Shown one piece after another: positions 11,058 to 13,064 of a stretch of DNA of 32,000 nt. The position numbers were made by a program, and so were the translations under genes. The notes below the pieces were generated by a model. It ran no database searches and was not told the origin of the DNA. It was given only the letters and a program-made list of their open reading frames with translations. The number at the start of each line of letters is the position of its first letter. Positions within the stretch are counted from its first letter, which is position 1. The DNA is taken from NCBI RefSeq assembly GCF_023585785.1, contig NZ_CP097765.1:120001-152000 (forward strand), written 5' to 3'. The DNA is from Blochmannia endosymbiont of Camponotus modoc. GTDB taxonomy: Bacteria; Pseudomonadota; Gammaproteobacteria; Enterobacterales; Enterobacteriaceae.

Positions 11058-13064
11058 TTAATGATACTGCTCTTCTTTATTTGTGGAATTAAAACTGTCG
11101 CTACTATCGTCTGTAGCGTAATCTTCGCTAATGGATGATGAAGATTGTGCAAGATTTAGTTTGACAAATATTTGTTCCATATCACTAAGGTGTTTAGTTT
11201 TTCTTCGTTCTCTTATGGTATTTTCAAGTTTATTTATATGTTCTGTAGTACCTACTGAAGCAAACTTAGACTGTCTGTGCGTAAATAAGCGATATGATAA
11301 GTCATCACTTTGATTAAAGTCAATTTTAGAAGATTTAAAAAAAATATCATGCATTTCTTCATTATCTGCATTTTTTTCATCAGAATGAGTTTGTTGATCT
11401 TTGCGAGATGCAGATCGGTTCAATAGTAATGTATCGTTCAGTGTTGATGATGCTATAAATTCCGATGAATCTTTTTCTAAAAAAGGAAAAGGAATGGGAG
11501 GGGGAGGAGGAGCTAAAAATATATGTTTATCTTCTATTATAGTATTCTGATCGTTTTCTGTTGGAGTATTATATACATCATCTTGTGGCTGTAGAGCAAA
11601 GAAGACATTTGAGACTGATGTATTATTCTTTATGCTACTATGCTGATCATCGTCATGACAAATTAATGTATGCTCAGCTGTATTTTCTGTAACATTAATT
11701 CCAGAATCAGTATTAACGTTAATAATAGACATATCTTTTTTTTGTGTATTCGTATTCAATAATTTTTTTTGTGAAAAATCTTTTACTACAATATGTATAT
11801 TTTGTTTTTTCTGTTCCTGATGGGATTGTGTTGCATTATTAGTAATGTATGAAACAAAAATATTGTTTTCTTGTTTAATAGGATAGTTTGGGAAATAGAG
11901 CGCATAAGTATTATGTGTTATTGCAACAATATTACCTCCGTGATTTTCCAATGACTCAAAATCCCATCGTACATATTTATCATTATTATCATCGATTTTA
12001 ATTATTTTAATTTCTCCGGGATAACCTGTTATTTTGTGAGTATGCCGCAAGGATGAAAGGTGATTATGATCGTTAATGGAAATATAATCGTGATGTGGAA
12101 TTATCGTAGGTATAAATGGTTGTATTATAGCATCAAGATTATTTAGTATTGATTTATTTTTTTTATTAGTATAATGCATTTGTTCCATAATAGGAGTACC
12201 GAATTGGTAATCTATTAATACTCGACAAATAGTATTATTGTATTGTTTATTTACAAAAATATTATTTATGCTAAAACCCAGCATGGGAATGGGTTGATAA
12301 TTCAGATTTAACGATAAATAATAGTCACTATTTTTTTTATTGAAAATTTTTTTATATTTTTTTTTATAAATAAATTGTTCCAATTTTATTTGTCCAGTAA
12401 ATTCGAAAAAGTGTGGAAATTTAGTTTGTATATACAATTGATGACCACTTTTTGGATAATGTATGTCACATTTCTGTAATGATGTTTCAGGATCAAAGAT
12501 ATTATCTAAATTATAATAATTATTTAACATGAATAGTGTATTATATAACCAATATTCTACACCAACATTAATTGAGTATGGTTGACTGCTGCTTTTTTTA
12601 GAAATCGGACAATGATAAAAAGTATTATATCCAATAGCGTATTTGTCGTTAGTTAGATGTCTTTTTCCTCCTCCAAAATTAAAAATTTGTTCTGATAAAA
12701 GATTGTGTACCCCTAATTGTATAAAGGATAAGTTTTTTTTGTGTTTGTTAGGTTGTGTGTAAAACGAATGAAACATATTGATTGAATCGTTTTGCAATTG
12801 CATTTTAGACTTATAAGTAGAAGAAAAGGGAGATCGATAATTATATGCATGGACGCGTAGTTTATTCGTTGTATAGGGATAAAAATTAAGAGTATGATGT
12901 ATATGGTCGTGAGTATGTAATTTCATCTCTTTTTGATATAAACCATCTTGAAATATATTATTATTAGCGTTGGATTTAATACACTCTGTGAGTGTGCTAC
13001 ACCAAGCGACTTTGTTATATGTAAATATTTGAAATATTATTCCTAATATAATAAATGTTGGCAT
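11058..13064 (-). CDS. Intimin/invasin-family inverse-autotransporter-like outer-membrane protein with a non-canonical proline-rich/acidic C-terminal tail
   Basis: Intact 668-codon ORF with a hydrophobic leader (MPTFIILGIIFQIFTYNKVAW). Residues about 112-295 match, motif by motif, my recollection of the EPEC intimin beta domain: NFGGGKRH/AIGYNTFYH vs NLGAGQRF/MLGYNVFID, VGVEYW vs IGGEYW, GQIKLEQFIY vs GAKLMYEQYYG, LNYQPIPMLGFSI vs VNYTPIPLVTMGI, DYQFGTP vs RYQFDKP. Residues about 345-427 resemble the first Ig-like domain (YVRWDFESLENHGGNI vs RIVWDDSALRSQGGQI). Residues about 430-668 are low complexity and contain LAPPPPPIPFPF. No SD precedes the ATG. The family call comes from memory-based alignment only. 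Confidence 0.65.
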   Translation of the reverse strand: MPTFIILGIIFQIFTYNKVAWCSTLTECIKSNANNNIFQDGLYQKEMKLHTHDHIHHTLNFYPYTTNKLRVHAYNYRSPFSSTYKSKMQLQNDSINMFHSFYTQPNKHKKNLSFIQLGVHNLLSEQIFNFGGGKRHLTNDKYAIGYNTFYHCPISKKSSSQPYSINVGVEYWLYNTLFMLNNYYNLDNIFDPETSLQKCDIHYPKSGHQLYIQTKFPHFFEFTGQIKLEQFIYKKKYKKIFNKKNSDYYLSLNLNYQPIPMLGFSINNIFVNKQYNNTICRVLIDYQFGTPIMEQMHYTNKKNKSILNNLDAIIQPFIPTIIPHHDYISINDHNHLSSLRHTHKITGYPGEIKIIKIDDNNDKYVRWDFESLENHGGNIVAITHNTYALYFPNYPIKQENNIFVSYITNNATQSHQEQKKQNIHIVVKDFSQKKLLNTNTQKKDMSIINVNTDSGINVTENTAEHTLICHDDDQHSSIKNNTSVSNVFFALQPQDDVYNTPTENDQNTIIEDKHIFLAPPPPPIPFPFLEKDSSEFIASSTLNDTLLLNRSASRKDQQTHSDEKNADNEEMHDIFFKSSKIDFNQSDDLSYRLFTHRQSKFASVGTTEHINKLENTIRERRKTKHLSDMEQIFVKLNLAQSSSSISEDYATDDSSDSFNSTNKEEQYH

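What the first reader, a model, noticed from the sequence alone, without database searches (positions are those of the whole stretch)
11061..11777. Passenger replaced by a polyproline motif and an acidic, Ser/Asn-rich low-complexity tail
After the single Ig-like domain, canonical family members carry arrays of Big domains and a lectin-like tip. The last roughly 240 residues here have none of that pattern. They read as compositionally biased, probably disordered sequence (NTNTQKKDMSIINVNTDSGINVTENT..., DDDQHSSIKNNTS..., ...SSSSISEDYATDDSSDSFNSTNKEEQYH). Embedded in it is one sharp motif, FLAPPPPPIPFPF (nt 11481-11513; GGGAGGGGGAGGAGGAGC on the + strand). In this topology the C-terminal part is the exported, surface-exposed part. 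If the bacterium lives directly in host cytoplasm, as Blochmannia-type symbionts do, a surface polyproline stretch could contact eukaryotic proline-recognition modules such as profilin, EVH1, SH3 or WW domains. That would be comparable in principle to the proline-rich repeats of Listeria ActA. This functional idea is speculation. The motif and the compositional bias are directly visible.
Basis: partly seen in the sequence, partly recalled or inferred. Interest (0 to 1): 0.75.

Follow-up and report, generated by a model that had tools for sequence, protein, structure and literature searches.

The report
Symbiont surface protein with conserved tail
An ant endosymbiont (Blochmannia) keeps an intimin/invasin-type outer-membrane protein whose exported end is a floppy tail carrying a short proline motif and a previously unnoticed small helical-plus-acidic end piece, both conserved in every relative found, which makes it a good candidate for contact with the host cell, although its partner is unknown.

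Summary
Window 11058-13064 (-) encodes a 668-aa inverse autotransporter of a Blochmannia endosymbiont of Camponotus. It has an IAT beta-barrel, one Ig-like domain, and a roughly 240-aa acidic S/D/N/T-rich tail with no Big or lectin domains.

The tail is not uniform low-complexity drift. Across 24 orthologs, two elements are conserved between indel-rich spacers:
- **Proline motif.** The core PxPP is present in 24/24 and P519/P521/P522 are invariant. The P5 run itself is present in only 12/24.
It has three predicted helices followed by an invariant Ser/Thr-acidic cluster. It is the most constrained part of the protein in four of six pairwise comparisons (dN/dS 0.03-0.10, against about 0.2 for the barrel). 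It has no homolog outside these orthologs among 1.84 billion representatives, PDB or Pfam.

The ActA/WASP-like reading failed its tests: there is no WH2, no acidic-Trp motif, and hhalign probability against WCA is 0.13%.

Best explanation: a surface tether presenting two docking elements to the host. Blochmannia lies free in host cytoplasm. The binding partner is unknown.

Verdict: new variant of a known kind, moderately high interest.

The parts
11058..13064 (-). Whole ORF, 668 aa plus stop: a Blochmannia inverse autotransporter (100% identical to P0001 = URJ26408.1 / WP_250256718.1)
   Evidence: It lies in conserved synteny nth-fumC-IAT-ubiX-kdsB-lpxK in six other Blochmannia genomes.
12993..13064 (-). 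N-terminal hydrophobic segment (aa 1-24), presumed Sec signal peptide
   Evidence: AF2 predicts a helix at aa 2-24. The hydrophobic stretch is conserved in the orthologs. No signal-peptide predictor was available, so this is an inference.
12150..12938 (-). Inverse-autotransporter beta-barrel (aa 43-305)
   Evidence: Pfam PF11924, E 9e-23. Profile search against PDB gives invasin 4E1T (E 9e-21) and intimin 4E1S (E 9e-19). Foldseek top hits are 4e1t and 4e1s.
11781..12038 (-). Single Ig-like (D00-type) beta domain (aa 343-428)
   Evidence: AF2 strands span aa 343-427 with pLDDT 65-79. The conserved GYPGEIKII motif is here. NCBIfam inverse-autotransporter N-terminal models align through about aa 400.
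11529..11780 (-). Variable spacer 1 (aa 429-512): N/T/D-rich, indel-rich, predicted disordered
   Evidence: Top-residue fraction 0.32-0.6 with gaps. pLDDT below 50. dN/dS 0.24-0.55. Length from the Ig-like domain to the proline motif is 42-155 aa across orthologs.
11481..11519 (-). Proline motif FLAPPPPPIPFPF (aa 516-528); conserved core P519-x-P521-P522
   Evidence: P519, P521 and P522 are invariant and P525 is at least 90% conserved in 24 orthologs. Motif classes were scored. The DNA was verified.
11310..11480 (-). Variable spacer 2 (aa 529-585): S/D-rich, predicted disordered
   Evidence: dN/dS 0.28-0.74. Length from the proline motif to the C-module is 60-106 aa.
11148..11309 (-). Conserved C-terminal module, helical part (aa 586-639): three predicted helices, aa 589-600, 607-623 and 628-639, with a basic patch ERKKTK
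   Evidence: F601 and E614 are invariant; L589, L593, G605, T606, E608, L613, F633, K635 and L636 are at least 90% conserved. AF2 on the module alone gives pLDDT above 90 over module residues 11-40 (aa 592-621), mean 75. dN/dS for the module (aa 586-658) is 0.03-0.10 in four close pairs.
11091..11147 (-). Conserved Ser/Thr-acidic cluster (aa 640-658): QSSSSISEDYATDDSSDSF. S643, S644 and T651 are invariant; S641 is at least 90% conserved.
   Evidence: The pattern S-x-S-S-[ILVM]-x-[ED] ... T-[DN]-D-S fits the acidophilic-kinase (CK2-type) consensus S/T-x-x-D/E. This is an inference; phosphorylation was not tested.
11061..11090 (-). Extreme C-terminus (aa 659-668): variable and often absent in orthologs

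Best explanation
**What it is.** The gene encodes a lineage-specific inverse autotransporter (type Ve) of Blochmannia.

**Established family knowledge.** The N-terminal barrel inserts in the outer membrane and the C-terminal passenger is threaded to the cell surface.

**Shown here.**
- The passenger is reduced to one Ig-like domain plus a roughly 240-aa, mostly disordered, acidic tether.
- The tether carries two elements under purifying selection. One is a short polyproline (PPII-type) motif in the middle. The other is an orphan module of about 73 aa at the very tip, made of three short helices followed by an invariant Ser/Thr-acidic cluster.

**Inferred.**
- Blochmannia lies naked in host cytoplasm, so the tail projects into the ant cytosol and works as a two-site docking device.
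- The proline motif would be a low-affinity ligand for a host proline-recognition domain. Its sequence is closest to profilin/FH1-type PPPPP-hydrophobic-P, but SH3, EVH1 or WW domains are not excluded. Avidity would come from many copies on the surface.
- The tip module would be the specific binding head, in the position where intimin and invasin carry their receptor-binding domain. The acidic serine cluster is probably phosphorylated by a host acidophilic kinase such as CK2.
- The likely outcome is recruitment of a host cytoskeletal or trafficking factor to the symbiont surface, for positioning, partitioning, cell-to-cell or oocyte transfer, or avoidance of degradation.
- It is not a WASP/ActA-type Arp2/3 activator by any sequence criterion tested.
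For: - **Family and topology.** Pfam IAT_beta E 9e-23. Profile hits to the invasin and intimin barrels, E 1e-20 and 1e-18. Foldseek finds the same barrels. An Ig-like beta domain follows the barrel.
- **Tail structure.** No further domains are found. pLDDT is below 50 for aa 433-606.
- **Proline motif.** 24 orthologs at 29-89% identity all keep a Pro cluster at the same relative place. Three Pro columns are invariant. The spacers vary by 42-155 and 60-106 aa.
- **C-module.** Its conservation equals that of the barrel. Its dN/dS is 0.03-0.10, against about 0.2 for the barrel and 0.3-0.7 for the spacers, in four close pairs. AF2 predicts three helices with pLDDT above 90 over aa 592-621.
- **Weight of the tail.** Eight of the protein's 29 invariant columns lie in the tail.
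- **Retention.** The gene is intact and syntenic in reduced genomes of 705-791 kb. It evolves about twice as fast as its neighbours: 34% identity against 58-71% to B. floridanus. This is typical of host-interface proteins.
- **Biology.** Blochmannia sits in the cytoplasm without a symbiosomal membrane. It shows possible cell-invasive behaviour, and the factors responsible are unknown (PMC3009655).
- **Precedent.** Autotransporter passengers with Pro-rich tracts engage profilin-actin in cytosolic bacteria, for example Sca2 and BimA (PMC9569871).
Against: - There is no evidence of expression, surface exposure, phosphorylation or binding.
- The proline motif fits no single recognition class in all orthologs, and the P5 run is present in only half of them.
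- There is a single short Pro track, whereas characterised effectors usually carry several.
- The C-module has no homolog or structural match that could point to a partner.
- The WH2, acidic-Trp, FFAT and W-acidic motifs tested are absent, and an LIR-like motif occurs in only 3/24 orthologs.
- Full-length AF2 confidence is low (mean pLDDT 40).
- Characterised inverse autotransporters act on extracellular targets.
- To my knowledge, actin tails or motility have never been reported for Blochmannia.
Confidence: 0.45

Rival explanations
1. It is a classical extracellular adhesin or invasin used only during transfer. The protein would act when Blochmannia leaves bacteriocytes and enters oocytes or other midgut cells. 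The conserved C-terminal module would be a new receptor-binding tip that replaces the lectin-like domain and binds a host cell-surface molecule. The proline motif would be a structural PPII hinge in a flexible stalk rather than a ligand for cytosolic domains.
For: - The protein belongs to the intimin/invasin family.
- The most conserved element sits at the distal tip, where invasin and intimin carry their binding domains.
- The literature reports possible invasion of enterocytes and oocytes, with the factors unknown (PMC3009655).
Against: - The bacteria spend almost all their time in the cytosol.
- A hinge role does not explain three invariant prolines next to a conserved hydrophobic-Pro pattern.
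- An invariant Ser/Thr-acidic cluster is more typical of intracellular, kinase-regulated motifs.
- A passenger that is disordered for about 160 aa is unusual for an extracellular adhesin stalk, which is normally built of rigid Ig domains.
Confidence: 0.25
2. It is a bona fide actin-assembly factor. The tail would be a degenerate or novel nucleation-promoting or elongation module, with a Pro-rich track delivering profilin-actin to an actin- or Arp2/3-binding C-terminal module. That would make it functionally analogous to RickA, ActA, BimA or Sca2, displayed on an inverse autotransporter instead of a classical or trimeric one.
For: - The order of elements, Pro track then helices then acidic end, mirrors PRD-W-C-A. 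PRDs lie N-terminal to actin-binding motifs in nucleators (PMC9569871).
- The proline motif resembles FH1 tracks, matching PPP.?[LIMVF]P in 20/24 orthologs.
- An ELM-style WH2 regex, written from memory, hits helix 3 plus KLRIT in 6/24 orthologs.
- Sca2 shows that actin binding can occur without recognisable WH2 motifs.
Against: - hhalign of the C-module against WASP, N-WASP, WAVE1 and WAVE2 WCA gives probability 0.13%.
- LKK[TV] is found in 0/24 and an acidic-Trp motif in 0/24.
- No member matches the Pfam WH2 family, and there are no PDB sequence or fold hits.
- There is only one Pro track.
- To my knowledge, no actin comets are known for Blochmannia.
Confidence: 0.12
3. It has a bacterial rather than host-directed function. 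The tail would mediate symbiont-symbiont contact or aggregation, or envelope organisation. Alternatively it may not be exported at all and may interact with periplasmic or outer-membrane components.
For: - Several inverse autotransporters promote autoaggregation or biofilm formation (established family knowledge).
- Blochmannia cells are densely packed in bacteriocytes.
- There is no direct proof that the tail is exported.
Against: - The family topology places the C-terminus outside the cell (PMC3467248; listed but not read here).
- Polyproline plus Ser/Thr-acidic clusters are hallmarks of eukaryotic linear-motif recognition.
- The module has no relatives in any other bacterium. That argues against a general envelope role.
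Confidence: 0.1
4. It is a neutral remnant. The tail would be decaying low-complexity sequence left after loss of the Big domains, and the proline run would be a chance feature.
For: The composition is biased, and the spacers are indel-rich and fast-evolving.
Against: - The C-module has dN/dS of 0.03-0.10, the lowest in the protein in four of six comparisons.
- Pro, Ser and Thr columns are invariant across 24 orthologs.
- The expected number of P5 runs by chance is 7e-5.
- GC-rich Pro codons are maintained in a 29% GC genome.
- The ORF is intact in every genome examined.
Confidence: 0.03

Closest known systems
Intimin, invasin and YchO-type inverse autotransporters (type Ve secretion; Pfam PF11924)
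   Same: It has an N-terminal hydrophobic leader and a homologous beta-barrel (E 1e-20 to invasin 4E1T), followed by an Ig-like domain. The functional element sits at the C-terminal tip of the passenger.
   Different: It has no array of Big domains and no C-type-lectin-like tip. Instead it has a disordered tail of about 240 aa with a proline motif and an orphan helical/acidic module. Its presumed target compartment is the host cytosol rather than a host cell surface.
Autotransporter-displayed actin effectors of cytosolic bacteria: Rickettsia Sca2 (type Va) and Burkholderia BimA (type Vc)
   Same: These are outer-membrane-anchored passengers exposed to host cytosol and carrying Pro-rich tracts. 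In Sca2 the tracts bind profilin-actin (PMC9569871).
   Different: The secretion subtype differs (Ve). There is only one short Pro track. There are no WH2 motifs and no formin-like repeat domains. No homology was detected. The organism is a mutualist with no known actin-based motility.
WASP-family NPFs and their bacterial mimics (RickA; ActA N-terminus): PRD-WH2-C-A
   Same: The linear order is similar: a Pro-rich element, then amphipathic helices with a basic patch, then an acidic Ser-rich C-terminus.
   Different: LKK[TV] is absent, the conserved Trp of the acidic motif is absent, and hhalign probability is 0.13%. It is not a member of this family.
ActA/zyxin-type EVH1 ligands (FPPPP repeats) and formin FH1 profilin tracks
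   Same: A short PPII motif with a preceding hydrophobic or aromatic residue and a following hydrophobic-Pro. The FH1-like pattern PPP.?[LIMVF]P is present in 20/24 orthologs.
   Different: There is a single copy, or two in P0011 and P0016. The strict EVH1 class-I regex matches only 10/24 and does not match the window protein. Binding is untested.
Buchnera SyeA (secreted endosymbiont effector essential for colonising host cells)
   Same: It is a host-directed factor retained by an ancient obligate insect mutualist, apparently a vestige of pathogenic ancestry (PMC13468123).
   Different: The protein is unrelated. [quoted passage not shown] The host and compartment also differ.

Membership tests
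Inverse autotransporter (type Ve, intimin/invasin family) | Beta-barrel homologous to PF11924 and the intimin/invasin barrels | tested here: met
   Pfam E 9e-23 over aa 43-305. PDB profile hits to 4E1T (E 9e-21) and 4E1S (E 9e-19). Foldseek hits 4e1t and 4e1s.
Inverse autotransporter (type Ve, intimin/invasin family) | N-terminal Sec signal peptide | tested here: inconclusive
   A hydrophobic helix at aa 2-24 is conserved in the orthologs. No signal-peptide predictor was available. Some deposited orthologs are annotated from an internal Met.
Inverse autotransporter (type Ve, intimin/invasin family) | C-terminal passenger that begins with an Ig-like (D00) domain after the barrel and linker | tested here: met
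   AF2 beta domain at aa 343-427, pLDDT 65-79. NCBIfam Ilp, IatC and YrIlm N-terminal models align to about aa 396-401.
Inverse autotransporter (type Ve, intimin/invasin family) | Passenger built of tandem Big domains with a lectin-like or other folded adhesive tip (typical of the family, not obligatory) | tested here: not met
   No Big or lectin Pfam hit. Aa 433-588 are predicted disordered. The tip is a three-helix module with no structural match.
Inverse autotransporter (type Ve, intimin/invasin family) | Passenger exposed on the cell surface | not testable with these tools
   Inferred from the family topology only.
WASP-type nucleation-promoting factor mimic (PRD-WH2-C-A; RickA/ActA-like) | WH2 motif (amphipathic helix plus LKKT/V) | tested here: not met
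   LKK[TV] in 0/24 orthologs. An ELM-style WH2 regex (from memory) hits only 6/24 and not the window protein. No member matches the Pfam WH2 family at E up to 10. hhalign against WCA gives probability 0.13%.
WASP-type nucleation-promoting factor mimic (PRD-WH2-C-A; RickA/ActA-like) | Acidic region with a conserved tryptophan (Arp2/3 binding) | tested here: not met
   An acidic-Trp motif is found in 0/24 orthologs. The aromatic residue near the end (DSF) is absent in several orthologs.
WASP-type nucleation-promoting factor mimic (PRD-WH2-C-A; RickA/ActA-like) | Pro-rich region N-terminal to the actin/Arp2/3-binding part | tested here: met
   A single Pro cluster lies 60-106 aa upstream of the C-module in 24/24 orthologs.
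EVH1 class-I ligand (ActA/zyxin FPPPP type) | Core [FYWL]PxPP or [FYWL]PP[ALIVTFY]P (ELM-style regex, from memory) | tested here: not met
   Matches 10/24 orthologs. The window protein (FLAPPPPPIP) does not match.
FH1/profilin-type polyproline track | Run of at least 3-5 Pro followed by hydrophobic-Pro (for example PPPPPLP) | tested here: met
   PPP.?[LIMVF]P in 20/24 orthologs, P5 in 12/24. The window protein has PPPPPIP. Actual profilin binding is not testable here.
CK2-type phospho-acidic cluster | Conserved Ser/Thr with Asp/Glu (or phosphorylatable Ser) at +3, in an acidic context with few basic residues | tested here: inconclusive
   S643, S644 and T651 are invariant and S641 is at least 90% conserved. 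The pattern S-S-[ILVM]-x-[ED] gives S644 an acidic residue at +3. Each ortholog has 1-4 strict [ST]xx[DE] sites. Phosphorylation is not testable here.

The most novel reading that the evidence does not exclude
The tail is a new, lineage-specific host-cytoskeleton (actin or motor) recruiting device, displayed on an inverse autotransporter by an ancient obligate mutualist. A profilin/SH3/EVH1-type proline ligand would act together with an orphan helical, phospho-regulated head. Together they would position, partition or transmit the cytosolic symbiont. This would be a mutualist counterpart of ActA, RickA, BimA or Sca2 built from unrelated sequence, and the first invasion or positioning factor identified for Blochmannia.
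Probability: 0.15. Interest if true: 0.85.

Novelty: new variant of a known kind. Interest (0 to 1): 0.62.

Why it matters
It is largely unknown how ancient, unculturable insect endosymbionts that sit naked in host cytoplasm hold their place, are partitioned, and move into oocytes. For Blochmannia, the literature explicitly lists the factors involved in invasion as an open question (PMC3009655).

In this 32-kb window every other gene is housekeeping. This gene is a pathogen-type surface protein. It has been kept intact and in the same syntenic position in every Blochmannia genome examined. Its strongest constraint falls on an exported tail that looks like eukaryote-directed linear motifs plus an orphan domain.

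That gives a concrete, testable handle: a 73-aa module and a 9-aa proline motif that can be used for pull-downs, antibodies and structure prediction with ant proteins. It would also extend the type Ve secretion family to a non-adhesin, disordered-tether passenger.

Tried and rejected
1. **WASP-like P-W-C-A hypothesis.** I raised this from the pattern MEQIFxKL plus acidic end. Motif regexes for LKK[TV] and acidic-Trp matched 0/24. Rejected as family membership.
2. **Search for a known relative of the C-module.**
   - PDB profile search: best E 0.3, to the CERT START N-terminus and OSCP; judged to be chance.
   - Pfam on all 17 members at E up to 10: only scattered single-member hits.
   - Exhaustive HMMER against 1.84 billion representatives: only the 15 Blochmannia-type proteins.
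   - Foldseek of the confident AF2 model against PDB: 0 hits.
3. **Other linear motifs in the acidic end.** FFAT-like and kinesin W-acidic matched none. An LIR-like motif matched 3/24. DxF matched 19/24, but in the orthologs printed it lay at non-homologous positions.
4. **Search for non-Blochmannia relatives of the whole protein.** Two word-indexed searches returned only Blochmannia proteins. The genome-contig scan returned only B. floridanus. I therefore could not decide whether the ancestor was a short-passenger YchO-like protein (best NCBIfam hit, E 9e-13, far below its cutoff) or a long intimin-like one. 'Passenger replaced' is not proven; the tail could be an addition.
5. **Promoter and terminator scan around the gene.** The number of promoter-like sites was not above shuffles and there was no terminator.
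6. **Literature.** There was no paper on a Blochmannia inverse autotransporter, adhesin or invasin in the searchable library. The 2006 function-prediction paper for B. floridanus contains none of the terms adhesin, invasin, intimin or proline.
7. **Full-length AF2.** The model was of low confidence (mean pLDDT 40, 17-sequence alignment). It was used only for coarse domain boundaries.
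Full report
**1. What is at the coordinates**

The finding's span 11061-11777 is the 3' third of a 668-aa ORF on the minus strand, 11058-13064. 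The window has about 29% G+C. The protein is 100% identical to an 'inverse autotransporter beta domain-containing protein' of a Blochmannia endosymbiont of Camponotus: P0001, accessions URJ26408.1 and WP_250256718.1, on a 790,674-bp contig.

Pfam finds one domain, IAT_beta (PF11924), over aa 43-305 with E 9e-23. A profile of the orthologs hits the crystallised barrels of invasin (4E1T, E 9e-21) and intimin (4E1S, E 9e-19). Foldseek on the AF2 model finds the same two. After the barrel, AF2 predicts one beta-rich domain at aa 343-427 with pLDDT 65-79, and then no further beta structure.

The quoted peptides are present. The purine-rich string GGGAGGGGGAGGAGGAGC is at 11496-11513 (+), unique in the window, and seen in 0 of 100 shuffles. 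The whole motif FLAPPPPPIPFPF is aa 516-528, nt 11481-11519.

**2. Is it more than chance?**

The protein is 4% Pro, so the expected number of P5 runs is 7e-5. Seven of the nine prolines of the tail are in this one motif.

The tail (aa 430-668) is compositionally biased: S 13%, D 10%, N 9%, T 8%, net charge -15. STNQDE makes up 52% of it, against 36-38% in the barrel and Ig-like domain. Its sequence entropy (3.96) is about that of the barrel (3.98), so it is not low complexity in the strict sense. Only the last 29 residues are clearly simple (entropy 3.16, 31% Ser).

**3. Orthologs change the picture**

One word-indexed search and one exhaustive HMMER search of 1.84 billion representatives together gave 24 distinct orthologs at 29-89% identity. 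All of them are proteins of 600-790 aa. Those that carry names are Blochmannia: pennsylvanica, vicinus, ocreatus, floridana ('putative adhesin') and vafra BVAF_377 ('hypothetical protein').

The gene lies in conserved synteny nth-fumC-IAT-ubiX-kdsB-(ycaR)-lpxK-msbA in six other genomes. It is intact in all of them. It evolves fast: 34% identity to B. floridanus, against 58-71% for its five neighbours.

Along the alignment the tail is heterogeneous.

- **Spacers.** Aa 429-512 and 529-585 are indel-rich and poorly conserved (top-residue fraction 0.3-0.5). Their lengths vary from 42 to 155 aa and from 60 to 106 aa.
- **Proline motif.**
  - It is present at the same relative position in 24/24 orthologs. 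P519, P521 and P522 are invariant and P525 is at least 90% conserved.
  - The P5 run itself is found in only 12/24. What is conserved is roughly: hydrophobic, x, x, P, x, P, P, P/K, hydrophobic, P.
  - By regex, the core PxPP matches 24/24 and PPP.?[LIMVF]P (FH1/profilin-like) matches 20/24.
  - EVH1 class I matches 10/24 and does not match the window protein.
  - SH3 with a basic anchor matches 1-2/24, PPLP 3/24 and PPxY 0/24.
  - Two long-tailed orthologs carry a second Pro cluster, DFLPLPPPPIIL and DTLPFPPPSLIF.
- **C-terminal module.** The last roughly 73 aligned residues (aa 586-658) are as conserved as the barrel (top-residue fraction 0.7-0.82). F601, E614, S643, S644 and T651 are invariant in 24 sequences, and ten more columns are at least 90% conserved.

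Eight of the protein's 29 invariant columns lie in the tail.

**4. Selection**

I computed Nei-Gojobori dN/dS by region on six pairs. In the four closest comparisons involving the window clade, the values were:

| Region | dN/dS |
|---|---|
| C-module (aa 586-658) | 0.03-0.10 |
| Barrel | 0.18-0.24 |
| Ig-like domain | 0.31-0.55 |
| Spacers | 0.28-0.74 |

In those four pairs the C-terminal module is the most constrained part of the protein. In the two other pairs it scored 0.19 and 0.31, near the barrel values. 'Decaying remnant' is therefore excluded for the module. The spacers look relaxed but not free.

**5. Structure**

Full-length AF2 with 17 sequences was poor (mean pLDDT 40). It was still informative for domain limits. 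The tail from aa 433 to 606 has pLDDT below 50, with three short helices at aa 589-601, 607-623 and 628-635.

The module folded alone with 24 sequences gives mean pLDDT 75, with pLDDT above 90 over aa 592-621. The helices are at aa 589-600, 607-623 and 628-639. The Ser/acidic end is disordered. Foldseek of that model against PDB gave no hit at all.

**6. What the module is not**

- The profile search against PDB sequences gave a best E of 0.3, which I judge to be chance.
- Pfam on every member at E up to 10 gave nothing consistent and no WH2 match.
- The exhaustive HMMER search found only the orthologs, with the weakest hit at E 4e-15 and none between that and the 1e-3 cut-off. The module is an orphan confined to this lineage, and it is not a copy of a host protein present in that library.

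I had suspected a WASP-like PRD-W-C-A layout, because MEQIFxKL resembles a C helix and is followed by an acidic, aromatic end. That suspicion failed. hhalign against WASP, N-WASP, WAVE1 and WAVE2 gave probability 0.13%. LKK[TV] matched 0/24 and an acidic-Trp motif matched 0/24. An ELM-style WH2 regex hit only 6/24, in helix 3 plus KLRIT, and not in the window protein. FFAT and W-acidic motifs were absent, and LIR and DxF motifs were not conserved in place.

What remains is descriptive. There is a basic patch (ERKKTK). There is an amphipathic third helix. There is an invariant pattern S-x-S-S-[ILVM]-x-[ED]-...-T-[DN]-D-S that fits the S/T-x-x-D/E consensus of acidophilic kinases such as CK2. 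The kinase assignment is an inference from established knowledge of the consensus, not a test.

**7. Biological setting**

Blochmannia resides in the bacteriocyte cytoplasm without a symbiosomal membrane. It appears in non-bacteriocyte midgut cells at metamorphosis and infiltrates oocytes. [quoted passage not shown]

I found no paper that discusses this gene. All other genes of the window are housekeeping: serC, aroA, cmk, rpsA, msbA, lpxK, kdsB, ubiX, fumC, nth, tyrS, pdxH, a MarR-family gene, rnt, ribE, sufABCDSE, lplA and pheT.

There are precedents for this kind of protein. Cytosolic pathogens display Pro-rich passengers on autotransporters, as in Sca2 and BimA, and Sca2's PRDs recruit profilin-actin (PMC9569871). 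An ancient mutualist, Buchnera, keeps a pathogen-derived effector, SyeA, that is essential for colonisation (PMC13468123).

**8. Most likely mechanism**

- **Shown.**
  - The protein is an inverse-autotransporter barrel plus one Ig-like domain plus a mostly disordered acidic tail.
  - Two tail elements are under purifying selection, separated by elastic spacers.
  - The tip module is helical and orphan.
- **From family knowledge.** The C-terminal passenger is exported to the surface.
- **Inferred.**
  - In the host cytosol the tail acts as a flexible tether with two docking sites.
  - The PPII motif would be a low-affinity, avidity-driven ligand of a host proline-recognition domain, closest in sequence to a profilin/FH1-type track.
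  - The tip module would be the specific head, possibly regulated by host phosphorylation of its Ser/Thr-acidic cluster.
  - The outcome would be recruitment of a cytoskeletal or trafficking factor for positioning, partitioning, transfer or protection.
  - I put this at about 0.45.

Rivals:

| Rival explanation | Confidence |
|---|---|
| Extracellular adhesin or invasin used only during transfer, with the module as a new receptor-binding tip | 0.25 |
| Genuine actin-assembly factor of novel sequence | 0.12 |
| Bacterial or envelope role | 0.10 |
| Neutral remnant | 0.03 |

**9. Comparison, novelty and score**

By barrel homology this is a member of the inverse autotransporter family. It departs from the family's typical passenger, which has Big arrays and a lectin tip (tested here: not met). 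It resembles Sca2, BimA, RickA and ActA only in general logic, as a surface-anchored Pro-rich tail in the cytosol. It fails the defining WH2 and acidic-Trp tests.

I rate it a new variant of a known kind that carries an orphan domain.

The description 'low-complexity tail' misses the conserved module. The ActA analogy is not supported beyond the presence of a proline motif.

Interest is 0.62. It would surprise specialists moderately, and it offers a concrete entry point to an open question in this symbiosis. The function remains unproven.

Noticed in passing
Orthologs P0011 (about aa 555-570) and P0016 (about aa 570-585); not in the window: Two long-tailed orthologs have a second proline cluster about 40 aa upstream of the main one (DYDTLPFPPPSLIFSS and NNDFLPLPPPPIILSS). 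Its acidic-aromatic-LPxPPP look recalls zyxin/ActA EVH1 ligands. The copy number of the motif therefore varies between lineages.
   Followed up: partly
window 11058-13064 (-), gene positions 325, 700, 727, 901, 1295, 1322 (A8-A9 runs) and 1721 (T8 run): Six poly(A) runs of 8-9 bases and one T8 run lie inside the ORF, all in frame. To my knowledge, such tracts are slippage-prone in Blochmannia. They could modulate expression or generate truncated products.
   Followed up: no
P0027-P0029 (620-621 aa) and P0006 (624 aa, against P0031 at 661 aa): Several deposited orthologs start at an internal Met (MKLHTHD...) and so lack the N-terminal hydrophobic leader. This may be an annotation difference or a real loss of the start codon. 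I did not check it at the DNA level.
   Followed up: no
window 9195-15431 compared with L001 (B. floridanus): The inverse autotransporter is only 34% identical between this genome and B. floridanus. Its syntenic neighbours kdsB, ubiX, fumC, nth and lpxK are 58-71% identical. It is one of the faster-evolving genes of the region despite the constrained tip.
   Followed up: partly
window 17957-18391 (-): A MarR-family (SlyA-like) transcription regulator is retained in this strongly reduced genome, between pdxH and rnt.
   Followed up: no
window 11131-11313 (+): A 60-aa antisense ORF lies inside the C-module coding region. It is probably a chance ORF. I did not examine it further.
   Followed up: no
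window 22088-27758 (-): A complete sufABCDSE Fe-S cluster assembly operon is followed by lplA and pheT. This is ordinary housekeeping. It shows that the inverse autotransporter is the only non-housekeeping gene in the 32-kb window.
   Followed up: yes
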